60,408 nt of DNA, from the IMG/VR virus record IMGVR_UViG_3300006198_000003, positions 1 through 60,408 of that record; one strand, written 5' to 3'. The stretch is from a virus. Positions 4,321-44,327 of this stretch are shown piece after piece. A program made the translations under genes and the position numbers. Each line of letters opens with the position of its first letter. Positions within the stretch are counted from its first letter, which is position 1. The notes beneath the pieces were generated by a model. It was not told the origin of the DNA, made no database searches, and was given only the letters and a program-made list of their open reading frames with translations.

Positions 4321-6060
4321 ACCTTAATCCGTGAAACTCAAACTTGTTAAATGCCTGAAAAGTCTGCGATTATGCAGTTTTGAAGAGCCAAACCAGCACC
4401 TTAAAATTCACCCATTTGGTGCGGCAAAATGGCTTAATTTTCCCACTTTTGCATTATTTTCTGGTATAATAGGGACAGCAGAAATCATAACGCGGGGGGC
4501 GGACACCAATGAAAAATATTAAGATCGAATTCACCAATGAGCGTATTATCCCGGCTTCAGGACTGGCAGTCGTAGGTGCCATCCTGGGCAAGAGCGATTT
4601 CGTAAAACGCTGCAACCGTATGGATGTCACAAAGAACCGTTCACAGCACCAGATTAAAAATGGTGACATCCTCCTTACATATATCGGTCTGCTGACTATG
4701 GGTAAACCTGCTTACGAGTCCGTCCATGAGTTTGATGATGACCAGGAGTTTTATAAGTATGCCCTTGGCATCACCAGGAGCATCCCTTCCGAGGAGACAT
4801 TACGCCAGCGGATGGATGACATTGGTGCTTCCCTGCGCCCCCAGATCCTTTCCGAGAACATAGAGATGCTCAGGACAAACGGTATTGTCCCGGGGAAGCT
4901 TCCAAACGGCTATGTTCCTGTGGATATTGATGTCACGCCTTTTGACAATTCAAAAACGCAGAAACAGGGAGTCTCGCGAACTTATAAAGGCTGCGACGGG
5001 TATGCGCCCATCATGGCATATATAGGAACCGAAGGCTACCTCATCAACTGTGAGCTGCGCGAGGGGAAGCAGCACTGCCAGAAGCATACACCGGAATTTT
5101 TGCGTGAAACGATACGTTTATGCCGCGAGATCACAAATGAACCTCTCCTTGTACGCCTAGACTCCGGGAACGATGCCGCGGAAAACATCGGCATACTGAT
5201 TGAAGCCGGATGCTGTTTCATCATAAAGCGGAACCTCCGCAGGGAAAGCAGGGAGGAATGGCTTTCCATGGCGGAATCCTGCAGCAAGGATGTCCAGACC
5301 CCCCGGGACGGCAAGACTGTCTATATAGGAAGCGACTGGAAGCCCGTCACATATAAAACACAATCCGGGGAAGAGAAAACCATTACCATCCGGACAGGAT
5401 ATGAGATTATCAACCGTACAATAGACAAGTATGGACAGTTTCTATTTCCAAATGACATCGAAGCCAACACCTGGTGGACCAACCTGGGGATGAACGACCA
5501 TGAGATCATCAGCCTGTACCATGCACATGGAGAATGCGAGCAGTTCCACAGTGAAATAAAAACAGACATGGACCTGGAACGTCTGCCGTCCGGTAAATTT
5601 GACACAAATGAGCTGGTGCTGGAGCTTGCTATAATTGCATACAATATCCTGCGCATGATAGGGCAGGAGTCCATAGGCCGCCGGGGGACGGAAACCAGAC
5701 ACAAGGTAAGGCGCCGTCGGCTGCGCACCGTGATCGGGAACATGATCATGATGGCGGGCCATGTGACAGAGCATGCCCGCCAGCTGATCATAGGGCTGGG
5801 CCGGAGCAACGTGTGGCGCTATGCATTCCAGGGAATATATACTGCATTTGCGGATTTCTATGCATAAATAAGCCTTCATACAGAAAACTTCCTGCATATA
5901 GGGGGAGTAGTGCGCCCATTTATAGGAAGATGGATAAGATTTAGCAGTATATTTCCACATTTATGCAGATTGATTCAACATTATCAAGGTACACTTTTTA
6001 CTTTTTGCCAATCTGATTGTAGATTGGCATATAAAAACAATGAGTTTCACGGATTCAGGT
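4321..6060 (+). mobile_element. IS1380-family insertion sequence (1740 bp)
   Basis: Terminal inverted repeats 4321-4340 / 6041-6060 match 19/20. 4-bp direct repeat GTTT at 4317-4320 and 6061-6064. Single DDE transposase ORF. By eye, GC content is higher than in the flanks. Confidence 0.9.
4509..5867 (+). CDS. IS1380-family DDE transposase
   Basis: N-terminus MKNIKIEFTNERIIPASGLAVVG, VRLDSGNDAAEN, YHAHGECEQFHSEIKTDMDLERLPSGKF...AYNILRMIG. Confidence 0.9.
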   Translation: MKNIKIEFTNERIIPASGLAVVGAILGKSDFVKRCNRMDVTKNRSQHQIKNGDILLTYIGLLTMGKPAYESVHEFDDDQEFYKYALGITRSIPSEETLRQRMDDIGASLRPQILSENIEMLRTNGIVPGKLPNGYVPVDIDVTPFDNSKTQKQGVSRTYKGCDGYAPIMAYIGTEGYLINCELREGKQHCQKHTPEFLRETIRLCREITNEPLLVRLDSGNDAAENIGILIEAGCCFIIKRNLRRESREEWLSMAESCSKDVQTPRDGKTVYIGSDWKPVTYKTQSGEEKTITIRTGYEIINRTIDKYGQFLFPNDIEANTWWTNLGMNDHEIISLYHAHGECEQFHSEIKTDMDLERLPSGKFDTNELVLELAIIAYNILRMIGQESIGRRGTETRHKVRRRRLRTVIGNMIMMAGHVTEHARQLIIGLGRSNVWRYAFQGIYTAFADFYA

Positions 6061-11113: not shown

Positions 11114-11147
11114 ATGGTACATCTCCCTCACGCTGAAGCTGTATAAT
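11114..11147 (+). promoter_or_regulatory. Conserved promoter-like motif copy P2
   Basis: ATGGTA 11114-11119, 22-nt spacer, TG-TATAAT 11142-11147. Confidence 0.55.
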
Positions 11148-11170
11148 TGGGGCATGGAGGTAGGGAGGGT

Positions 11171-11581
11171 ATGGCAAAACATAAATATGTGATATACAAA
11201 ATATTTTATGATAGCCCAGACGGAGAATGTATAGCATATCTTGGAAGAACAAAGCAGCCGATAAATGCAAGACTCAATGGCCATTTCTTCCAGAAGCCCA
11301 TGCACAAACTGATAGACGTGCTGCAGGTGAGTCATATTGAGGTTGCGGAGTGCAAAACCGAGGCAGATATGTTCTTGTATGAAATCTATTACATAAATAG
11401 ATACAAGCCGATGCTCAATAGGGATGATAAATCCAAAGAGGATTTGACAATCAATCTCCCGGAACTGGATTTTCAGATACTCCACAACGAATCGCTTATG
11501 AATAAGTGGAGAGAAAAGATAAGCCGCAGAAACGAGTTTGCAAAGAATTATCAATCTGGGGATTGCCTTGTGTGGGATTGA
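11171..11581 (+). CDS. GIY-YIG nuclease domain protein (free-standing homing-endonuclease-like)
   Basis: KYVIYKI...CIAYLGRT...R...H...EADMFLYEIYYINRYKPMLN follows the GIY-YIG motif order; RBS GGGAGGG. Confidence 0.7.
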   Translation: MAKHKYVIYKIFYDSPDGECIAYLGRTKQPINARLNGHFFQKPMHKLIDVLQVSHIEVAECKTEADMFLYEIYYINRYKPMLNRDDKSKEDLTINLPELDFQILHNESLMNKWREKISRRNEFAKNYQSGDCLVWD

Positions 11582-11650
11582 ATTATCAACCTAGAATTGC
11601 TATAATGTGAAAAAATACATATCAGAGGGCGATGGATATGGGAAATAAAA

Positions 11651-11671
11651 GGGCAGAAATGCTCTTTTTTT
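11651..11671 (+). terminator. rho-independent terminator
   Basis: GGGCA-GAAA-TGCTC followed by TTTTTTT. Confidence 0.6.
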
Positions 11672-11684
11672 CTGCAAAAATGTA

Positions 11685-11713
11685 TTGACTTATACGCATA
11701 ATAGGCGCATAAT
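11685..11713 (+). promoter_or_regulatory. sigma-A type promoter of hicAB
   Basis: TTGACT 11685-11690, 17-nt spacer, CATAAT 11708-11713. Confidence 0.65.
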
Positions 11714-11736
11714 TGTATTTGCAAGGAGGGCACAGG

Positions 11737-11910
11737 ATGAAAACAAAAGACCTTATCAAACTATTAGAAAGCAATGGTTGGAAGTTCAAGCGGCACGGTG
11801 GAAACCATGATGTCTATGAAAAAGGCGGAAAGAGGGAAAGCATCGTAAGACACAGAGAAACAGATGAAGATTTAGCAAAAGCAATCATCAAGCGGAACGG
11901 GCTGAAATAA
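11737..11910 (+). CDS. hicA: HicA toxin (type II TA mRNA interferase)
   Basis: MKTKDLIKLLESNGWKFKRHGGNHDVYEK...IVRHRE...AIIKRNGL, the HicA dsRBD-like pattern. Confidence 0.9.
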   Translation: MKTKDLIKLLESNGWKFKRHGGNHDVYEKGGKRESIVRHRETDEDLAKAIIKRNGLK

Positions 11911-11963
11911 GCCTGGAATCCGCGGGATATAATAAATAAAGTCGTGTTAAGGAGGTTAACGGA

Positions 11964-12362
11964 ATGAAAAAAGCATATCCAGTTATTCTGTCACAAGGAG
12001 AAAAATTTATCGTGGCATATGTGCCGGATTTTGAAATCAATACACAAGGTACAGATGTTGCAGATGCAATCGAAATGGCAAGGGACGCAATAGGGGTTGT
12101 CGGCATTGATATGGAAGATGATGGAGAATCCTTACCAGAACCAACAGCAATTTCAGATGTAAAGGCTGATTCGACGGCGGATATTGTAACACTTGTTGAT
12201 GTGGACTTCGGAGAGTATCGCAGAAAGAACGATATGAGGGCGGTCAAGAAAAACTGCACAATACCGTCATGGTTGAATTTTGAAGCTGAAAAGGCGGGGG
12301 TGAATTTTTCTGCAATATTGACGGCGGCACTCAAAAGCGAGTTGAAAATTCAAAGCAGATAA
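11964..12362 (+). CDS. hicB: HicB antitoxin
   Basis: YPVILSQGEKFIVAYVPDFEINTQGTDVADAIEMARDAIG, the HicB N-domain pattern, directly downstream of hicA. Confidence 0.85.
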   Translation: MKKAYPVILSQGEKFIVAYVPDFEINTQGTDVADAIEMARDAIGVVGIDMEDDGESLPEPTAISDVKADSTADIVTLVDVDFGEYRRKNDMRAVKKNCTIPSWLNFEAEKAGVNFSAILTAALKSELKIQSR

Positions 12363-12380
12363 ATGTGAAGAAAAAGGAAA

Positions 12381-12410
12381 GGGCAGTAGAGAAAATCTAT
12401 TGCTCTTTTA
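12381..12410 (+). terminator. rho-independent terminator after hicB
   Basis: GGGCAGTAGA-GAAAA-TCTATTGCTC (two G-U pairs) followed by TTTTA. Confidence 0.7.
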
Positions 12411-12561
12411 TTCTGCCTAAGTATCATAGTCAGAGCGCACAGATTGACATAGGAGCGGCGAACGACAAGCAGGCGTCTTATCAGAGGATGCGGATTTTAA
12501 GGCAAAGCGTGATGTTGTTGTGAAATACAAAAAGAGCATGGAGCAGATTTCATGAGACAAA

Positions 12562-12587
12562 GGGGCGGCAGTGATGCCGCTCTTTTT
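12562..12587 (+). terminator. rho-independent terminator
   Basis: GCGGCA-GTGA-TGCCGC followed by TCTTTTT. Confidence 0.7.
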
Positions 12588-12597
12588 GCGCTTAACT

Positions 12598-12631
12598 TTG
12601 GTACAAATAATTTTTGAAGCTGTGGTATGAT
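12598..12631 (+). promoter_or_regulatory. Conserved promoter-like motif copy P3
   Basis: TTGGTA 12598-12603, 22-nt spacer, TGG-TATGAT 12626-12631. Confidence 0.55.
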
Positions 12632-12637
12632 GTAATC

Positions 12638-13240
12638 ACTCCGTACAAGATGAATGAACTTTCTGGATTGTTCTGTTTTACAGGATATGAAATTAGGGAA
12701 CGCGTCTTCGGAACCTGCACAGTCCTTGCAGACAGAAAATGGACATTGATCAGAATGCCGTTTGAAGTGGAGGGAACGCACGCCGCGTGATGGGCGGGTG
12801 TATGATTGTGAGTTTGGGAGCCAAAATAGCTTCGTGGGTTTTAACAATCAAAAATTAGAAGGAGGATACGGCCATGAAGAAGCGATGTTACAACCATGCT
12901 AACGTGATGGAAAATTTTGAAATCTGATCCGGCTGCGGCCCGTGGCGAATGAATCGCCAAACGTGGCATCATGTGAGATGAATCGCGGCTTTAAGAACAC
13001 GTTAAACTATGTAAGACCGCACTGCACAGCCCTTGCAGACATAAAATGGACAATCTACCTGAAGGAGACTTGAAGTCCTGCAATGCTATATAGTTTCCAA
13101 AAAACTTTATCTGTAATAGATGAGACTAGCCAGTGATTGCAGTAGTCTGGCAGTTACAGATAGTGCGCTGGAAGTGATGATCAGATTGTGAGCGTAGCGA
13201 AGCAATAATCAATCGAGGTAGTTTATAAGGCGCATATGGT
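12638..13240 (+). ncRNA. candidate large structured noncoding RNA (ROOL/GOLLD-like context; class unverified)
   Basis: No credible ORF; promoter motif upstream; runs into a tRNA-like element. Hand-verified nested helices at 13111-13159; 31-nt internal repeat at 12715 and 13022. Confidence 0.4.
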
Positions 13241-13316
13241 GGAAAGTTGTGTTATCTGGCGTGAAACTGCCGGGAGGCTAGCACCGGCGAGATAGGTTCG
13301 ATTCCTATACTTTCCA
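13241..13316 (+). ncRNA. tRNA-like element TL1 (10-nt anticodon-position loop)
   Basis: Acceptor GGAAAGT/ACTTTCC 7/7; T arm ATAGG-TTCGATT-CCTAT. Stem GCCGG/CCGGC closes the loop GAGGCTAGCA; weak 3-bp D stem. Confidence 0.55.
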
Positions 13317-13416
13317 TGCCTGGGAAGATACCACAAGAGAACTGGGTGTTGCAATCCGTCAAGAACGGTAAACGCAGGGGAGGTATCATTGGGGCGAGTG
13401 GTTATCGCTTCAAAAG

Positions 13417-13530
13417 CGGATAGTAGCTTAATGGTAGAGCCGGAGTAGGGGGCAATCCGAAACGAAAAGGAGTGCAAATATCCGTGGCTATAGTGTGCCT
13501 AATATGCAGGTTCGATTCCTGCCTATCCAT
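13417..13530 (+). ncRNA. tRNA-like element TL2 (114 nt, oversized anticodon/variable region)
   Basis: Acceptor CGGATAG/CTATCCA (C1-A72 mismatch), D arm GCTT-AATGGTA-GAGC, T arm GCAGG-TTCGATT-CCTGC; 72 nt lie between the D and T arms. Confidence 0.55.
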
Positions 13531-13587
13531 TTAACTCTGATAGGGGAGTTTTCTCTTGTCGGAAACCGCAAAAGGGAGGATATGAGA

Positions 13588-13869
13588 ATGGATAAAAATG
13601 ATTCACTTGGGATGTGCATAGCAAAAATAATTGGCTGTGTGATTTTAATATGCTTGATTGCATCATTCAGTCGTTCTTGCAGTAGAAGTGATAGGAGTAT
13701 GGTTTCTATCAAAGAGGGATATTGTTATGACTATGATACGCAAATAATTTATATCGAATCTTATACTGGAAGATATGGACTGGAAACAACATACACACCA
13801 TATTACAATTTTGACGGTGATTTATGCAAATATGATTTAGAATCGGGAAACTGGATTCCTATTGAGTGA
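13588..13869 (+). CDS. small membrane-anchored protein
   Basis: RBS GGGAGGA; MDKNDSLGMCIAKIIGCVILICLIASF is an N-terminal TM helix; Tyr-rich ectodomain. Confidence 0.6.
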   Translation: MDKNDSLGMCIAKIIGCVILICLIASFSRSCSRSDRSMVSIKEGYCYDYDTQIIYIESYTGRYGLETTYTPYYNFDGDLCKYDLESGNWIPIE

Positions 13870-14915: not shown

Positions 14916-14979
14916 AGCCAAGACGCATTGACGCAAGAGCCAGTAGATACGAGAAATCGTGTTTGCTGGCATTTTTATT

Positions 14980-15006
14980 TTGACATTATCTAATTTTTGA
15001 TAAATT
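14980..15006 (+). promoter_or_regulatory. sigma-A type promoter with extended -10 upstream of the tRNA-like cluster
   Basis: TTGACA 14980-14985, 15-nt spacer, TGaTAAATT 14998-15006. Confidence 0.5.
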
Positions 15007-15011
15007 TCCTA

Positions 15012-15030
15012 ACCCTCCTTTCAAGAGGGT
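15012..15030 (+). other. stand-alone anticodon-arm-like hairpin (loop CTTTCAA)
   Basis: ACCCTC/GAGGGT 6-bp stem and a 7-nt loop with U at position 2 and A at position 6; central triplet TTC. Confidence 0.5.
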
Positions 15031-15081
15031 GCATCCGTCAGTAATGGTGCTGTAAAGGCGGTTCGATTCCGCACTGGTGCA
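15031..15081 (+). ncRNA. tRNA-like element TL3 (51 nt, no anticodon arm)
   Basis: Acceptor GCATCCG/CTGGTGC (6/7 pairs), D-like hairpin CAG-TAATGGTG-CTG, T arm GGCGG-TTCGATT-CCGCA; nothing lies between the D and T arms. Confidence 0.45.
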
Positions 15082-15144
15082 TTTGGGGAGAAATCCCCAC
15101 ATTTCCCTATCAAGCGTCTGCCCCTTGTGGGTGGGCGCACTCCT

Positions 15145-15218
15145 GGGAGATTAAAGATAACTGGAAATCGCCTAGACTCCAAATCTACGGTACGAGGGTT
15201 CGATTCCTTCATCTCCTG
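15145..15218 (+). tRNA. tRNA-Trp (anticodon CCA), imperfect
   Basis: Acceptor GGGAGAT/ATCTCCT, anticodon arm CTAGA-CTCCAAA-TCTAC (C-C at 27-43), T arm GAGGG-TTCGATT-CCTTC, 3-bp D stem, one extra nt after the acceptor. Confidence 0.6.
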
Positions 15219-15237
15219 TTTGGCAGACGTGCCAAGT

Positions 15238-15354
15238 TCTTCATATCTGGTTCAAATCCAGTCGCCTTGATAGAAAAATCGTGATGCGCAGCGAAAGTAT
15301 CTTGAAAAGGTAGGGGCGTTGGCAGTAAGCGCGGTTCGATTCCGCTGTGAAGAA
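15238..15354 (+). ncRNA. tRNA-like element TL5 (117 nt, large internal insertion)
   Basis: Acceptor TCTTCAT/GTGAAGA 7/7 (one G-U), hairpin CTGG-TTCAAAT-CCAG at the D position, T arm CGCGG-TTCGATT-CCGCT; 69-nt middle with helix CGCCTT/GGGGCG. Confidence 0.5.
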
Positions 15355-15433
15355 TTACCCCGGCAGAGGTTCATCTGCCTAAATCCATACAGCGGACACG
15401 CTGTTAAAAACCATGTTAGGAGGATAACGAAAC

Positions 15434-16042
15434 ATGAAAAACATTGAACAGATTTTGAAAGAAGCAGGAATTGAGGTTACGGACGAGCAGAAAGCGGCGG
15501 TCAATGCTGCGGTGACGGAGAACTACAAGACCATTGCAGAGTTTGACAAGCAGGCTAAAAAGCTGACAGCAGCAGAAGCAGACCGGGACAATTACAAAGG
15601 GCAGCTTGACACAGCAAACGAAACCTTGGAGAAATTCAAGGACATTGACCCGGAGAAACAAGCAGAGGAAATCCAGAAGTATAAGCAGGCGGCGAAAGAA
15701 GCGCAGGACATGGCTACGAAGCAGATTCTGGAACGTGACCAGCGGGATTACCTCAAAGGCGAGTTTGACAAGCTGAAAATCGAATCGGGACGTGTCAGGG
15801 ATTCGCTCATGCGTGAAATCATGGGCGAGGACGGCTTGAAATGGAAGGACGGCGCATTTATGGGGCTGTCGGACTATCTGGCGAAGGAGAATGAAAAAGA
15901 CCACTTCTATCAGACCGAAGCTGAAAAAGCAGAAGCCGAAGCCAAAGAGAAAGCCGCCGGCAGTGCGCCGAAGTTTACGGACAAGTCCGAGCCGAAGCAG
16001 GCCCCGGCGAAAGATACCAGTCCGGCTCCTGTGATTTTCTAA
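15434..16042 (+). CDS. capsid scaffolding protein
   Basis: MKNIEQILKEAGIEVTDEQKAAVNAAVTENYKTIAEFDK, coiled-coil and charged, directly upstream of the major capsid gene. Confidence 0.85.
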   Translation: MKNIEQILKEAGIEVTDEQKAAVNAAVTENYKTIAEFDKQAKKLTAAEADRDNYKGQLDTANETLEKFKDIDPEKQAEEIQKYKQAAKEAQDMATKQILERDQRDYLKGEFDKLKIESGRVRDSLMREIMGEDGLKWKDGAFMGLSDYLAKENEKDHFYQTEAEKAEAEAKEKAAGSAPKFTDKSEPKQAPAKDTSPAPVIF

Positions 16043-43158: not shown

Positions 43159-43186
43159 CAATCAGGTTCGAATCCTGTCACCCCGA
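43159..43186 (+). other. attP core: 3' fragment of a tRNA gene
   Basis: CAGG-TTCGAAT-CCTG T-arm followed by acceptor strand CACCCCGA; no matching 5' half upstream. Confidence 0.65.
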
Positions 43187-43331: not shown

Positions 43332-44327
43332 CTAATTAAAGAGGGCGTTCCGCAGCTTGTCGGCAGCGTCCCTCTTAGCCTTTTCCTCTTTCTCCATCAT
43401 GGAGTGCCGGTATACGGATTTCATCACATGGTCCGTCTCCCAACCGCCCATTTTAAGGATATCCGCCTCCGGTATCCCCATGGCTGACATTTGGCTTGCA
43501 AAGTAATGCCGGAGCTTGTGGAGCGGAAAGCGCGGGATCCCTAGCCTTTCCTCGACTTTCTCTAGGTGCTTTGTTATGCTGCCAGGGTGTCCCTTGTACA
43601 CATACCCCTGCTCACGTATTTGTTCGGACAGTGCTTCAGGTATGATGATGCTCCGAGTACTTTCAGTGGTCTTTGTAGTTTTGACTACCCACTCTTTCTT
43701 TGCGTTTTGCACCATGGCCTTGCTGATATGTGCGATATCCCCGTCAATATCTTCCGGTTGCAGCGCGCATATCTCTGATCGGCGCATTCCATAGCAGGCC
43801 AGAGTAATCGGAACCTCAAACGGTGTGTCCTTTACTTCTGCCAGTATCCTCTTTACATCCTCCTGAGAGGGCGTGTAAGGCTCAGATTTGACCTTTTGAG
43901 GGAGTGTGGTACTGACTTTAAGGTTCGGGCAAAAAGTCCCCAGAACAGCCGTCAAAAAGCCGTGGTAGTTGCGCACGGTCTTTGGGGACTTGCCTTTTGA
44001 TATCTCATTGACCAGCTTGTTGATTTCTATTTGTGTGATATCAGATACCGGGAGTTTCCGGAACCATTCAGGGAAGCGGTTCACATTTTCGAAGTATTCT
44101 TTTATCGTCCTGGGGGACAGGACATTTCTTTTCATGTCCACATAGCTTTCGGCAGCACGCTGGAATGTCATCTGGGTATTTGCATTCCTTATCCGTTCTA
44201 ATTCCTTCGCCATGGCAGTTATGGCCTCTTTCTGCGTGGGCTTATAATCAAAAGTCACGGTATAAATCTGCCCCTTGTACATTTTTCTGACCCGGTAGCT
44301 GTCAGGCCCTCTCTTTTCAATCTTCAT
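43332..44327 (-). CDS. int: tyrosine site-specific integrase
   Basis: ACYGMRRSE...LHKLRHYFASQM...GGWETDHVMKSVYRH gives the R...HxxR...Y catalytic pattern. SAM-like N-terminal domain. Confidence 0.95.
   Translation of the reverse strand: MKIEKRGPDSYRVRKMYKGQIYTVTFDYKPTQKEAITAMAKELERIRNANTQMTFQRAAESYVDMKRNVLSPRTIKEYFENVNRFPEWFRKLPVSDITQIEINKLVNEISKGKSPKTVRNYHGFLTAVLGTFCPNLKVSTTLPQKVKSEPYTPSQEDVKRILAEVKDTPFEVPITLACYGMRRSEICALQPEDIDGDIAHISKAMVQNAKKEWVVKTTKTTESTRSIIIPEALSEQIREQGYVYKGHPGSITKHLEKVEERLGIPRFPLHKLRHYFASQMSAMGIPEADILKMGGWETDHVMKSVYRHSMMEKEEKAKRDAADKLRNALFN

What the first reader, a model, noticed from the sequence alone, without database searches (positions are those of the whole stretch)
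12598..13240. About 600 nt of promoter-driven, ORF-free sequence: candidate large structured phage ncRNA abutting tRNA-like elements
Genes in this genome are packed almost end to end, yet 12411-13587 has no credible ORF. The largest + strand ORF with an RBS is 17 aa. The stretch begins right after two terminators (12381-12410, 12562-12587) and one copy of the conserved promoter motif (TTGGTA 12598-12603, TATGAT 12626-12631). It should therefore be transcribed as its own unit, and it runs straight into a tRNA-like element at 13241. I checked these helices by hand: CTGTAA/TTACAG (13111-13116 with 13154-13159) enclosing AGACTA/TAGTCT (13123-13128 with 13143-13148), and GGCGA/TCGCC (12944-12948 with 12954-12958). 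Internal repeats include a 31-nt motif that occurs twice and AGGGAACGC at 12695 and 12771. The very large ornate RNAs ROOL and GOLLD are known from Firmicutes prophages and typically sit next to tRNA genes. Size and context fit ROOL best. I cannot score a covariance model, so this may equally be an undescribed RNA class.
Basis: partly seen in the sequence, partly recalled or inferred. Interest (0 to 1): 0.8.

Follow-up and report, generated by a model that had tools for sequence, protein, structure and literature searches.

The report
New phage RNA heading tRNA arrays
The last ~220 bases of this gene-free stretch encode a previously uncatalogued folded RNA, found in about 90 gut-phage sequences and always at the head of a phage tRNA cluster; it is not the known giant RNA "ROOL", and the first ~380 bases are only a variable leader.

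Summary
The stretch is ORF-poor, follows a real recurring phage promoter motif and abuts a tRNA-like element. It is not ROOL, GOLLD, raiA, OLE or HEARO: Rfam 15 gives no hit even at E<=10, while the same ROOL model scores 339 and 322 bits in two related loci.

Only 13022-13240 (~219 nt) is conserved. It belongs to an RNA family absent from Rfam, recovered in about 90 viral, metagenomic and genome loci. That includes one cultured phage, Blautia phage Montmirail, where it is annotated as a 33-aa ORF.

Five to seven sequence types keep the same helices through many compensatory changes. On 11 sequences, 95% of cells pair against 21-43% in slid controls. Two invariant loops are 7-nt complementary.

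The family lies on the tRNA strand. An ARAGORN tRNA starts 150-293 nt after the loop-1 motif in 60 of 71 loci, and none lies upstream in any of 90. In two loci a true ROOL sits further down the same array.

The 5' part (12638-13021) is lineage-specific, has indels in close relatives, and holds a 17-aa sORF with a strong RBS.

My best reading is a structured leader RNA of phage tRNA/late operons, released by RNase P. Its function is unproven.

The parts
12592..12631 (+). Phage promoter motif (TTAACTTTGGTACAA, 19 nt, TATGAT). The predicted transcription start is near 12638.
   Evidence: Six + strand copies in the window share this architecture. It is conserved in relatives L015 and L086. Promoter activity is inferred.
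12638..13021 (+). Lineage-specific 5' leader. It holds copy 1 of the 5'-hairpin module (12715-12745) and a 17-aa sORF.
   Evidence: No homologs outside near-identical relatives. L015 lacks about 12647-12731. No covariance-model hit, MFE z = +0.18, no Pfam hits.
12875..12928 (+). 17-aa sORF (MKKRCYNHANVMENFEI) with an AGGAGG RBS 8 nt upstream. It may or may not be translated.
   Evidence: It is identical in L063 and L086 and has one synonymous change in L015. That is too little variation to test for coding.
13022..13038 (+). 5' hairpin (CUGCA / 7-nt loop / UGCAG), followed by the spacer ACAUAAAAUGGACAAU.
   Evidence: The stem changes to CUAUG/CAUAG with the same loop in L032 and L093; 4 of 5 pairs show double changes on A3. 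The AGACAKAAAATGGACA module recurs at -40 or -151 from the loop-1 motif in several types.
13055..13060 (+). P0 5' strand (CUACCU), pairing with 13216-13221.
   Evidence: 98.5% of cells paired on A3, with 2 covarying pairs. It holds in type D. It crosses P4, making a pseudoknot.
13064..13098 (+). P1 hairpin (GGAGACU / AGUUUCC) with the invariant 19-nt loop L1, UGAAGUCCUGCAAUGCUAUA.
   Evidence: 97.7% paired and 5 of 7 pairs with double changes on 25 sequences. Seven different stem sequences occur across types.
13099..13108 (+). Invariant A-rich linker AAAAAACUUU.
   Evidence: Invariant columns in alignments A2, A4 and A5.
13109..13161 (+). P2 hairpin. P2a is 13109-16 with 13154-61. An internal loop (AGAUGAGACUA) follows. 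P2b is 13129/30-33 with 13147-50/51. The invariant loop L2 is UGAUUGCAGUAGU.
   Evidence: P2a is 99% paired with 6 of 8 pairs showing double changes. P2b is 100% paired with 2 of 4.
13078..13084 (+). L1 segment CUGCAAU, complementary to the L2 segment AUUGCAG (13136-13142). This is a candidate kissing interaction, within one molecule or between molecules.
   Evidence: Seven of 7 positions are complementary and invariant in 25 sequences. Type D has CUGCAAA with L2 unchanged, which leaves 6 bp and no compensation. There is therefore no covariation proof.
13163..13169 (+). P4 5' strand (GUGCGCU), pairing with 13229-13235. It is followed by the invariant GGAAGU (13170-13175).
   Evidence: 96.1% paired with 2 covarying pairs on A3. 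Type D has GCACUC/GAGUGC at the same place. MFE folds of most types, taken one at a time, recover it.
13184..13214 (+). P3 hairpin (GAUUG ... CAAUC in the window; UGAC ... GUCG in other types). This part is variable.
   Evidence: 88.6% paired with 1 covarying pair. Present in the single-sequence MFE folds of several types.
13216..13240 (+). P0 3' strand (AGGUAG), the conserved UUUAUAAGG, the P4 3' strand, and 5 nt up to the tRNA-like element.
   Evidence: GGURGUUUAYAAGG is conserved in all non-A types.
13241..13316 (+). tRNA-like element 1. It has an acceptor stem, a weak D arm, a canonical T arm and a 10-nt 'anticodon' loop. It is the presumed RNase P entry site that sets the 3' end of the RNA.
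   Evidence: Rfam tRNA 33.0 bits, not called by ARAGORN. It is 100% conserved in L063 and L086, with one G-U-compatible change in L015. RNase P cleavage is inferred.
13417..13530 (+). tRNA-like element 2, with a 61-nt insert in place of the anticodon arm.
   Evidence: Rfam tRNA 38.6 bits. It is absent from relatives L063 and L086.

Best explanation
Window 13022-13240 encodes a + strand structured RNA of about 219 nt. It belongs to a family that is not in Rfam 15.

The fold has these parts:
- a 5' hairpin;
- two conserved hairpins, P1 and P2, whose invariant loops carry a mutually complementary 7-mer;
- a variable hairpin, P3;
- two long-range closing helices, P0 and P4, which cross to form a pseudoknot.

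In the window the RNA is transcribed from the phage promoter at 12592-12631, behind a variable 380-nt leader. The same transcript carries the tRNA-like elements that follow.

Across phages the family is always the first element of an untranslated tRNA or tRNA-like array, which sometimes also holds ROOL. In several lineages it sits just upstream of the terminase genes, at the presumed start of the late operon.

Inferred mechanism:
- RNase P cleavage at the 5' end of the adjacent tRNA(-like) releases the RNA with a defined 3' end just after P4.
- The folded leader acts on its own transcript. My preferred guess is that it secures elongation or processing of a long untranslated, Rho-sensitive array, in the manner of put or EAR processive antitermination.

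Shown: the sequence family, the helices, the strand, and the position at the head of the array. Inferred: transcription, RNase P processing, and the cis-acting role.
For: - No known family matches. Rfam 15 gives only tRNA hits in 12300-13700 at E<=10.
- Homologs: Blautia phage Montmirail at 87% identity over 13069-13176, and about 90 loci from pattern scans.
- Model R1 gives one window hit, 13052-13173, at 138 bits and E 1.6e-26. Every other window hit scores <=13 bits. It gives one copy per locus elsewhere.
- Covariation: RNAalifold finds 13 of 22 pairs with double changes. On 25 sequences P1, P2a and P2b are 97.7-100% paired; 15 pairs carry double changes, reached by 2 of 500 shuffles, against 1-4 in slid controls.
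- On 11 non-A sequences the whole model is 95.2% paired, against 21-43% when slid, with 21 pairs carrying double changes.
- Type D adds further independent compensations in P1, P2a, P2b, P4 and P0.
- Single-sequence MFE folds of most types converge on the same layout.
- Strand: 39 G-U cells against about 3 A-C cells in P1 and P2. That fits an RNA on the + strand, which is the tRNA strand.
- Position: an ARAGORN tRNA starts 150-293 nt after the loop-1 motif in 60 of 71 loci. No tRNA lies within 3 kb upstream in any of 90 loci, and 17 loci have at least 2 tRNAs downstream.
- ROOL lies downstream in the same array in L093 and L118.
- Types A and D lie just before terS/terL.
- No reading frame stays open across types.
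Against: - There are no expression data, so transcript ends are inferred.
- The MFE z-score of 13022-13240 is +0.25.
- The loop-loop pairing has no covariation, and type D carries one uncompensated change.
- No conserved terminator/antiterminator alternative lies between the element and the tRNA, so there is no riboswitch-like expression platform.
- In type D a terminator-like hairpin lies 7 nt upstream of P0, not downstream of it. That sits awkwardly with an antitermination leader.
- Seven loci keep only the 5' half of the element, upstream of an ORF.
- The type A 3' domain does not fit P0/P4 as drawn.
- All homologs were collected with patterns that fix the loop sequences. The apparent invariance of the loops is therefore partly by construction.
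Confidence: 0.5

Rival explanations
1. It is a trans-acting, stable structured RNA, possibly an RNA-only or ribonucleoprotein particle. It would merely use the neighbouring tRNA for 3'-end maturation, as ROOL and GOLLD appear to. Its function, such as anti-defence or host manipulation, would be unrelated to expression of the array.
For: The fold is complex and pseudoknotted, with invariant loops. It shares the niche of ROOL, which forms homo-oligomers (PMC12286853). L1 and L2 are self-complementary, which would allow head-to-tail assembly. No conserved protein-coding neighbour is evident in the 11 loci inspected.
Against: It is always the first element of the array and never lies between tRNAs, which a free-standing RNA gene does not require. 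Truncated copies are tolerated. There are no data on expression or stability.
Confidence: 0.3
2. It is a ROOL or GOLLD RNA, or a divergent member of one of them, spanning about 600 nt.
For: The context fits: a prophage, tRNA-like neighbours, and an ORF-poor stretch of about 600 nt.
Against: No ROOL or GOLLD hit at E<=10, while the ROOL model scores 339 and 322 bits in L093 and L118. There ROOL and this element are separate, non-overlapping RNAs. Only ~219 nt are conserved. [quoted passage not shown]
Confidence: 0.01
3. It has no RNA function of its own. It would be a decaying remnant of a tRNA array, or a selfish DNA cassette or recombination module that travels with tRNA genes between phages.
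For: The window carries only non-canonical tRNA-likes, while relatives have canonical tRNAs. Relatives show indels and module swapping. Truncated copies exist. The 108-nt core is 87-89% identical between phages whose flanks do not align. The core is bounded by the near-repeat CTTGAAGT / CTGGAAGT.
Against: Compensatory changes in at least 5 helices, with frequent G-U pairs, point to selection on a + strand RNA fold. The element does not resemble tRNA: Rfam tRNA does not hit it. The loops are invariant across about 90 loci.
Confidence: 0.1
4. The 5' part (12638-13021) works through translation of the 17-aa sORF, either as a leader-peptide type of control or as a micropeptide. It would not be a structured RNA.
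For: The RBS is strong (AGGAGG, 8-nt spacer). The peptide is identical in three relatives, with one synonymous change.
Against: There is too little divergence to test for coding. It has no homologs outside near-identical phages, and no Pfam family applies at this length. It says nothing about 13022-13240.
Confidence: 0.15

Closest known systems
ROOL RNA (RF03087) and GOLLD RNA
   Same: All are structured non-coding RNAs of phages and prophages of Firmicutes, lying next to tRNA genes (PMC5737381). In L093 and L118 the new element and a true ROOL sit in one tRNA array.
   Different: There is no sequence or structure match. The new element is ~219 nt against ~581 nt for ROOL, and GOLLD is longer still (PMC5737381). 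It has one junction plus a pseudoknot, against six junctions and three pseudoknots. It always comes first in the array, whereas ROOL sits between tRNAs.
Cis-acting processive antitermination RNAs: HK022 put and Bacillus EAR (from my own knowledge of these systems)
   Same: Each is a promoter-distal leader RNA with two conserved stem-loops or a pseudoknot at the head of a long operon, with no dedicated protein encoded nearby.
   Different: No Rfam match to any family at E<=10. Antitermination is untested. In type D a terminator-like hairpin lies upstream rather than downstream. put is about 70 nt, and this element is about 170-220 nt.
RNAs matured by RNase P at an adjacent tRNA(-like): the stable RNAs of the phage T4 tRNA cluster and eukaryotic MALAT1-mascRNA (from my own knowledge)
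   Same: A non-coding RNA lies directly 5' of a tRNA or a non-canonical tRNA-like structure. P4 ends 5 nt before the tRNA-like element in the window.
   Different: Processing has not been shown here, and there is no sequence relationship.
phi29 pRNA
   Same: A phage RNA with two loops that are complementary to each other and could support ring formation.
   Different: No Rfam match. The phage type and genome position differ. Complementarity is 7 nt here, against 4 nt in pRNA (from my own knowledge).
Unnamed 'csRNA' candidates from IMG/VR (Fremin et al. 2023, PMC10690425)
   Same: That catalogue lists 10,006 candidates. Among them are short, highly expressed ones from Caudovirales infecting Blautia and Lachnospiraceae in the human gut.
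   Different: The highlighted ones are 64-86 nt, shorter than this element.

Membership tests
ROOL (RF03087) | Reaches the Rfam covariance-model gathering score of 99.1 bits | tested here: not met
   No hit in the window at gathering and none in 12300-13700 at E<=10. Positive control: 339.2 and 322 bits in L093 and L118.
ROOL (RF03087) | [quoted passage not shown] | tested here: not met
   The conserved unit is ~219 nt, with P0-P4 and one pseudoknot.
ROOL / GOLLD | Located near tRNA genes, often in prophages | tested here: met
   tRNA-like element at 13241; a tRNA lies downstream in 60 of 71 loci; the window is a temperate phage.
GOLLD, raiA, OLE, HEARO | Match to the Rfam covariance model | tested here: not met
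   No hits at E<=10.
tRNA (RF00005), for the abutting elements | Covariance-model score of at least 29 bits | tested here: met
   13241-13316 scores 33.0 bits and 13417-13530 scores 38.6 bits.
tRNA (RF00005), for the abutting elements | Canonical 5-bp anticodon stem with a 7-nt loop, callable by a tRNA gene finder | tested here: not met
   One has a 10-nt loop and the other a 61-nt insert. ARAGORN finds no tRNA in the window.
Self-cleaving ribozymes (hammerhead, twister, pistol, hatchet and others) | Match to the Rfam covariance model | tested here: not met
   No hit at E<=10. The Hammerhead_II model does fire elsewhere, in L024.
Processive antitermination RNAs (put, EAR) | Cis-acting suppression of downstream terminators | not testable with these tools
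   Only the position at the head of operons is shown.
New family (this element) | P1 with loop UGAAGUCCUGCAAWGCUAUA, the A-rich linker, P2 with loop UGAUUGCAGUADU, then GGAAGU | tested here: met
   R1 hit at 13052-13173, 138.4 bits, E 1.6e-26.
New family (this element) | Same strand as, and 5' of, the first tRNA(-like) of an array | tested here: met
   The window has tRNA-likes at 13241 and 13417 downstream and none upstream.

The most novel reading that the evidence does not exclude
The element is an RNA-only processive antiterminator, analogous to put, used by phages of Gram-positive gut bacteria. It would carry RNA polymerase through long untranslated tRNA/ROOL arrays and into the late genes.

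Alternatively, its two self-complementary loops drive assembly into closed homo-oligomers, as seen for ROOL and GOLLD.
Probability: 0.15. Interest if true: 0.8.

Novelty: new variant of a known kind. Interest (0 to 1): 0.58.

Why it matters
Phage tRNA clusters are a known niche for enigmatic ornate RNAs such as ROOL and GOLLD, whose biology is unsolved. This element is a third, smaller RNA class in that niche. It has a fixed position at the head of the array and it co-occurs with ROOL.

It therefore offers a tractable handle on how such untranslated arrays are transcribed and processed, and on what they do. It is about 200 nt long and is present in an inducible prophage of a cultured mouse-gut strain (Montmirail in Blautia coccoides).

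The case also shows that PHANOTATE-style annotation hides this RNA as a 33-aa 'hypothetical protein'.

Tried and rejected
- Rfam at gathering and at E<=10 gave only tRNA.
- Single-sequence thermodynamics was uninformative: z = +0.28, +0.25 and +0.18.
- A covariance-model search for a second or degenerate copy in 12598-13021 found none.
- Reading loop 1 as a sigma-70 promoter (TTGAAG ... TATAAA) fails because the spacer is only 11 nt, as the sequence shows directly.
- A hammerhead-like GAUGAG in the P2 internal loop was rejected: its positions vary between types and no Rfam hit appears.
- A boxA-like CGCUCU is present only in types A and D.
- One viral-contig scan was wasted on a mis-specified pattern.
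- A scan that left the 7 kissing bases of loop 1 free found only CUGCAAU and CUGCAAA, so the loop-loop pairing got no covariation test.
- The genome-contig scan found a single true hit, an Acetatifactor MAG.
- The supplementary tables of the csRNA catalogue were not available.
- My column-based P0 and P3 do not fit type A.

Full report
**1. The observation**

Window 12411-13587 has only short ORFs on either strand, and none matches Pfam.

The promoter motif is real. TTTGGTACAA, then 19 nt, then a TACAAT-like hexamer occurs six times on the + strand at intergenic positions. There are 9 matches at up to 3 mismatches, against 2.1 expected. The copy at 12592-12631 follows two hairpins with T runs.

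The interval ends at a tRNA-like element, 13241-13316, which scores 33.0 bits on Rfam tRNA. A second tRNA-like lies at 13417-13530 and scores 38.6 bits. Both have aberrant anticodon regions, and ARAGORN calls neither.

**2. It is not a known family**

Rfam 15 holds 4227 families. It gives nothing but tRNA in 12300-13700, even at E<=10.

The ROOL model is able to detect ROOL in this material. It scores 339 and 322 bits over its full length in two related loci.

**3. What is conserved**

BLAST against 50,697 phage records finds one hit. Blautia phage Montmirail is 87% identical over 13069-13176. That stretch lies there between a regulator gene and tRNA-Asn, and is annotated as a 33-aa hypothetical ORF.

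Exact-pattern scans of viral, metagenome and genome collections gave about 90 loci. Some are duplicates between collections. They fall into five to seven sequence types:
- the window type (the window, L015, L063 from an Acetatifactor MAG, and L086);
- type A (Montmirail-like);
- type B;
- type C, the commonest, with sub-variants L026, L032 and L069;
- type D.

Outside near-identical relatives, similarity to the window is confined to 13022-13176. A further conserved stretch, GGURGUUUAYAAGGCG, runs up to 13235.

The 5' 380 nt (12638-13021) has no homologs elsewhere. Relative L015 lacks about 12647-12731 of it. This part gives no covariance-model hit.

**4. Structure**

RNAalifold on 25 distinct sequences predicts two hairpins, and 13 of 22 pairs keep pairing through changes on both sides.

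Counting on my own model gives:

| Helix | Cells paired | Pairs with double changes |
|---|---|---|
| P1 | 97.7% | 5 of 7 |
| P2a | 99% | 6 of 8 |
| P2b | 100% | 2 of 4 |

Across the whole model 15 pairs carry double changes. Two of 500 shuffles reach that number, and slid controls give 1-4.

On the 11 non-A sequences the full model has a 5' hairpin, P0, P1, P2a, P2b, P3 and P4. It is 95.2% paired, against 21-43% when the 3' partners are slid, and 21 pairs carry double changes.

P0 (13055-60 with 13216-21) and P4 (13163-69 with 13229-35) cross each other, which makes a pseudoknot. Type D was found later. It adds independent compensations in P1, P2a, P2b, P4 (GCACUC/GAGUGC) and P0.

MFE folds of most types, taken one at a time, give the same P1/P2/P3/P4 layout. 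G-U pairs are frequent in P1 and P2 (39 cells) and A-C cells are rare (about 3). The fold is therefore on the + strand, the strand of the tRNAs. No reading frame stays open across types.

The two hairpin loops are invariant. They hold a complementary 7-mer, CUGCAAU at 13078-84 and AUUGCAG at 13136-42. This is suggestive of a kissing interaction but unproven. Type D has CUGCAAA with the partner loop unchanged. My scans also fixed parts of these loops.

- CTGTAA/TTACAG is right, being part of P2a;
- AGACTA/TAGTCT is displaced by the covarying GCCAG/CUGGC;
- GGCGA/TCGCC is broken in L015.

**5. Context**

An ARAGORN tRNA starts 150-293 nt after the loop-1 motif, on the same strand, in 60 of 71 loci. 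Most are Gln; others are Asn, Tyr, His, Pro-like, Arg, Glu and odd ones. The remaining loci, as far as inspected, carry non-canonical tRNA-likes (the window; type D).

No tRNA lies within 3 kb upstream in any of 90 loci, and 17 loci have two to four tRNAs downstream. The element therefore always heads the array.

In L093 the order is element, three tRNAs, ROOL, tRNA. In L118 it is element, a tRNA split by an HNH ORF, tRNA, ROOL, tRNA. ROOL was found in 2 of the 33 related loci scanned.

In types A and D the array, or a single tRNA-like, is followed by terS/terL. Protein neighbours are otherwise not conserved in the loci inspected. Seven loci keep only the 5' half of the element, fused to other sequence upstream of an ORF.

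In the window the unit sits in a 'moron' island of accessory genes, between the minor capsid and scaffold genes. The island also holds a GIY-YIG nuclease gene and HicAB.

**6. Interpretation**

These points are shown: a new covariation-supported RNA family; its strand; its ~219-nt extent in the window (13022-13240); and its fixed place at the 5' head of phage tRNA arrays.

These points are inferred:
- transcription from the promoter at 12592-12631 through a variable leader;
- 3' maturation by RNase P at 13240/13241 (P4 ends 5 nt before the tRNA-like);
- a cis-acting role for the array or late operon. My preferred guess is protection of a long untranslated transcript from termination, as put and EAR RNAs do.

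The main rival is a trans-acting stable RNA or particle that only borrows the tRNA for processing, as is presumed for ROOL and GOLLD.

Against the antitermination guess:
- there is no conserved expression platform;
- in type D a terminator-like hairpin lies upstream of the element;
- truncated copies are tolerated.

**7. Novelty**

The element is not in Rfam 15, and it is not annotated as an RNA in the only GenBank phage that carries it.

A bulk catalogue of 10,006 unnamed candidates from IMG/VR exists. It mentions highly expressed short candidates in Blautia and Lachnospiraceae phages (PMC10690425).

I rate the element a new variant of a known kind, namely phage structured RNAs linked to tRNA genes. 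Interest is moderate to high.

Noticed in passing
window 14939-15434: This is a second ORF-free stretch, just before the scaffold gene. It holds a strong terminator-like hairpin (14939-14970) and four T-arm motifs (GGTTCGAWTCC at 15060, 15197, 15249 and 15333). Only 15146-15217 scores as tRNA (32.8 bits). Relative L086 has canonical tRNA-Pro and tRNA-Gln in place of 15143-15355. The window phage seems to carry only non-canonical tRNA-likes.
   Followed up: partly
L093 1226-1786 (-) and L118 5183-5765 (-): Full-length ROOL RNAs (339 and 322 bits) lie in the same tRNA arrays as the new element, downstream of it.
   Followed up: partly
L118, between the element and ROOL (about +200 to +800 from loop 1): A tRNA-like 5' half and 3' half are separated by an ORF for an HNH-type endonuclease. 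It looks like an intron-containing or interrupted tRNA gene. No Rfam group I intron hit appeared at gathering.
   Followed up: no
window 12715-12757 versus 13022-13054 plus 13178-13188: Copy 1 of the 31-nt module is followed directly by TGATCAGAATG. Copy 2 is followed by the 125-nt core and then TGATCAGATTG. Copy 1 therefore looks like a core-less version of the element. The core itself is bounded by the near-repeat CTTGAAGT / CTGGAAGT. Copy 1 is absent from L015.
   Followed up: partly
window 43165-43175, next to the integrase gene 43332-44324 (-): An isolated T-arm motif (GGTTCGAATCC) sits beside a tyrosine integrase gene and an S24 repressor gene. It may be an attP core derived from a tRNA 3' end.
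   Followed up: no
window 4509-5864: A DDE transposase (an IS element) is inserted among the packaging and head genes of the phage.
   Followed up: no
window 11147-12362: A GIY-YIG nuclease gene and a HicA/HicB toxin-antitoxin pair lie directly upstream of the RNA unit, inside the head-gene module.
   Followed up: no
L024 5638-5703 (+): A type II hammerhead ribozyme (59.8 bits) occurs in a type C phage contig, about 5 kb from the element and on the other strand.
   Followed up: no
L121-L123, L129, L130, L132, L133: These loci hold truncated copies of the element. P0, P1, the linker and the 5' part of P2 are kept, and the rest is replaced by unrelated sequence. An ORF starting MGRPLKIKSPEEMERLWQEYKQ follows.
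   Followed up: no
L003/L019 and L124-L128, just after the element: A recurrent non-canonical tRNA-like follows the element: acceptor stem, T arm, and a 5-bp stem with a 5-nt loop in place of the anticodon arm. ARAGORN calls it 'tRNA-Pro, anticodon at position 29' in type A loci and misses it in type D.
   Followed up: partly
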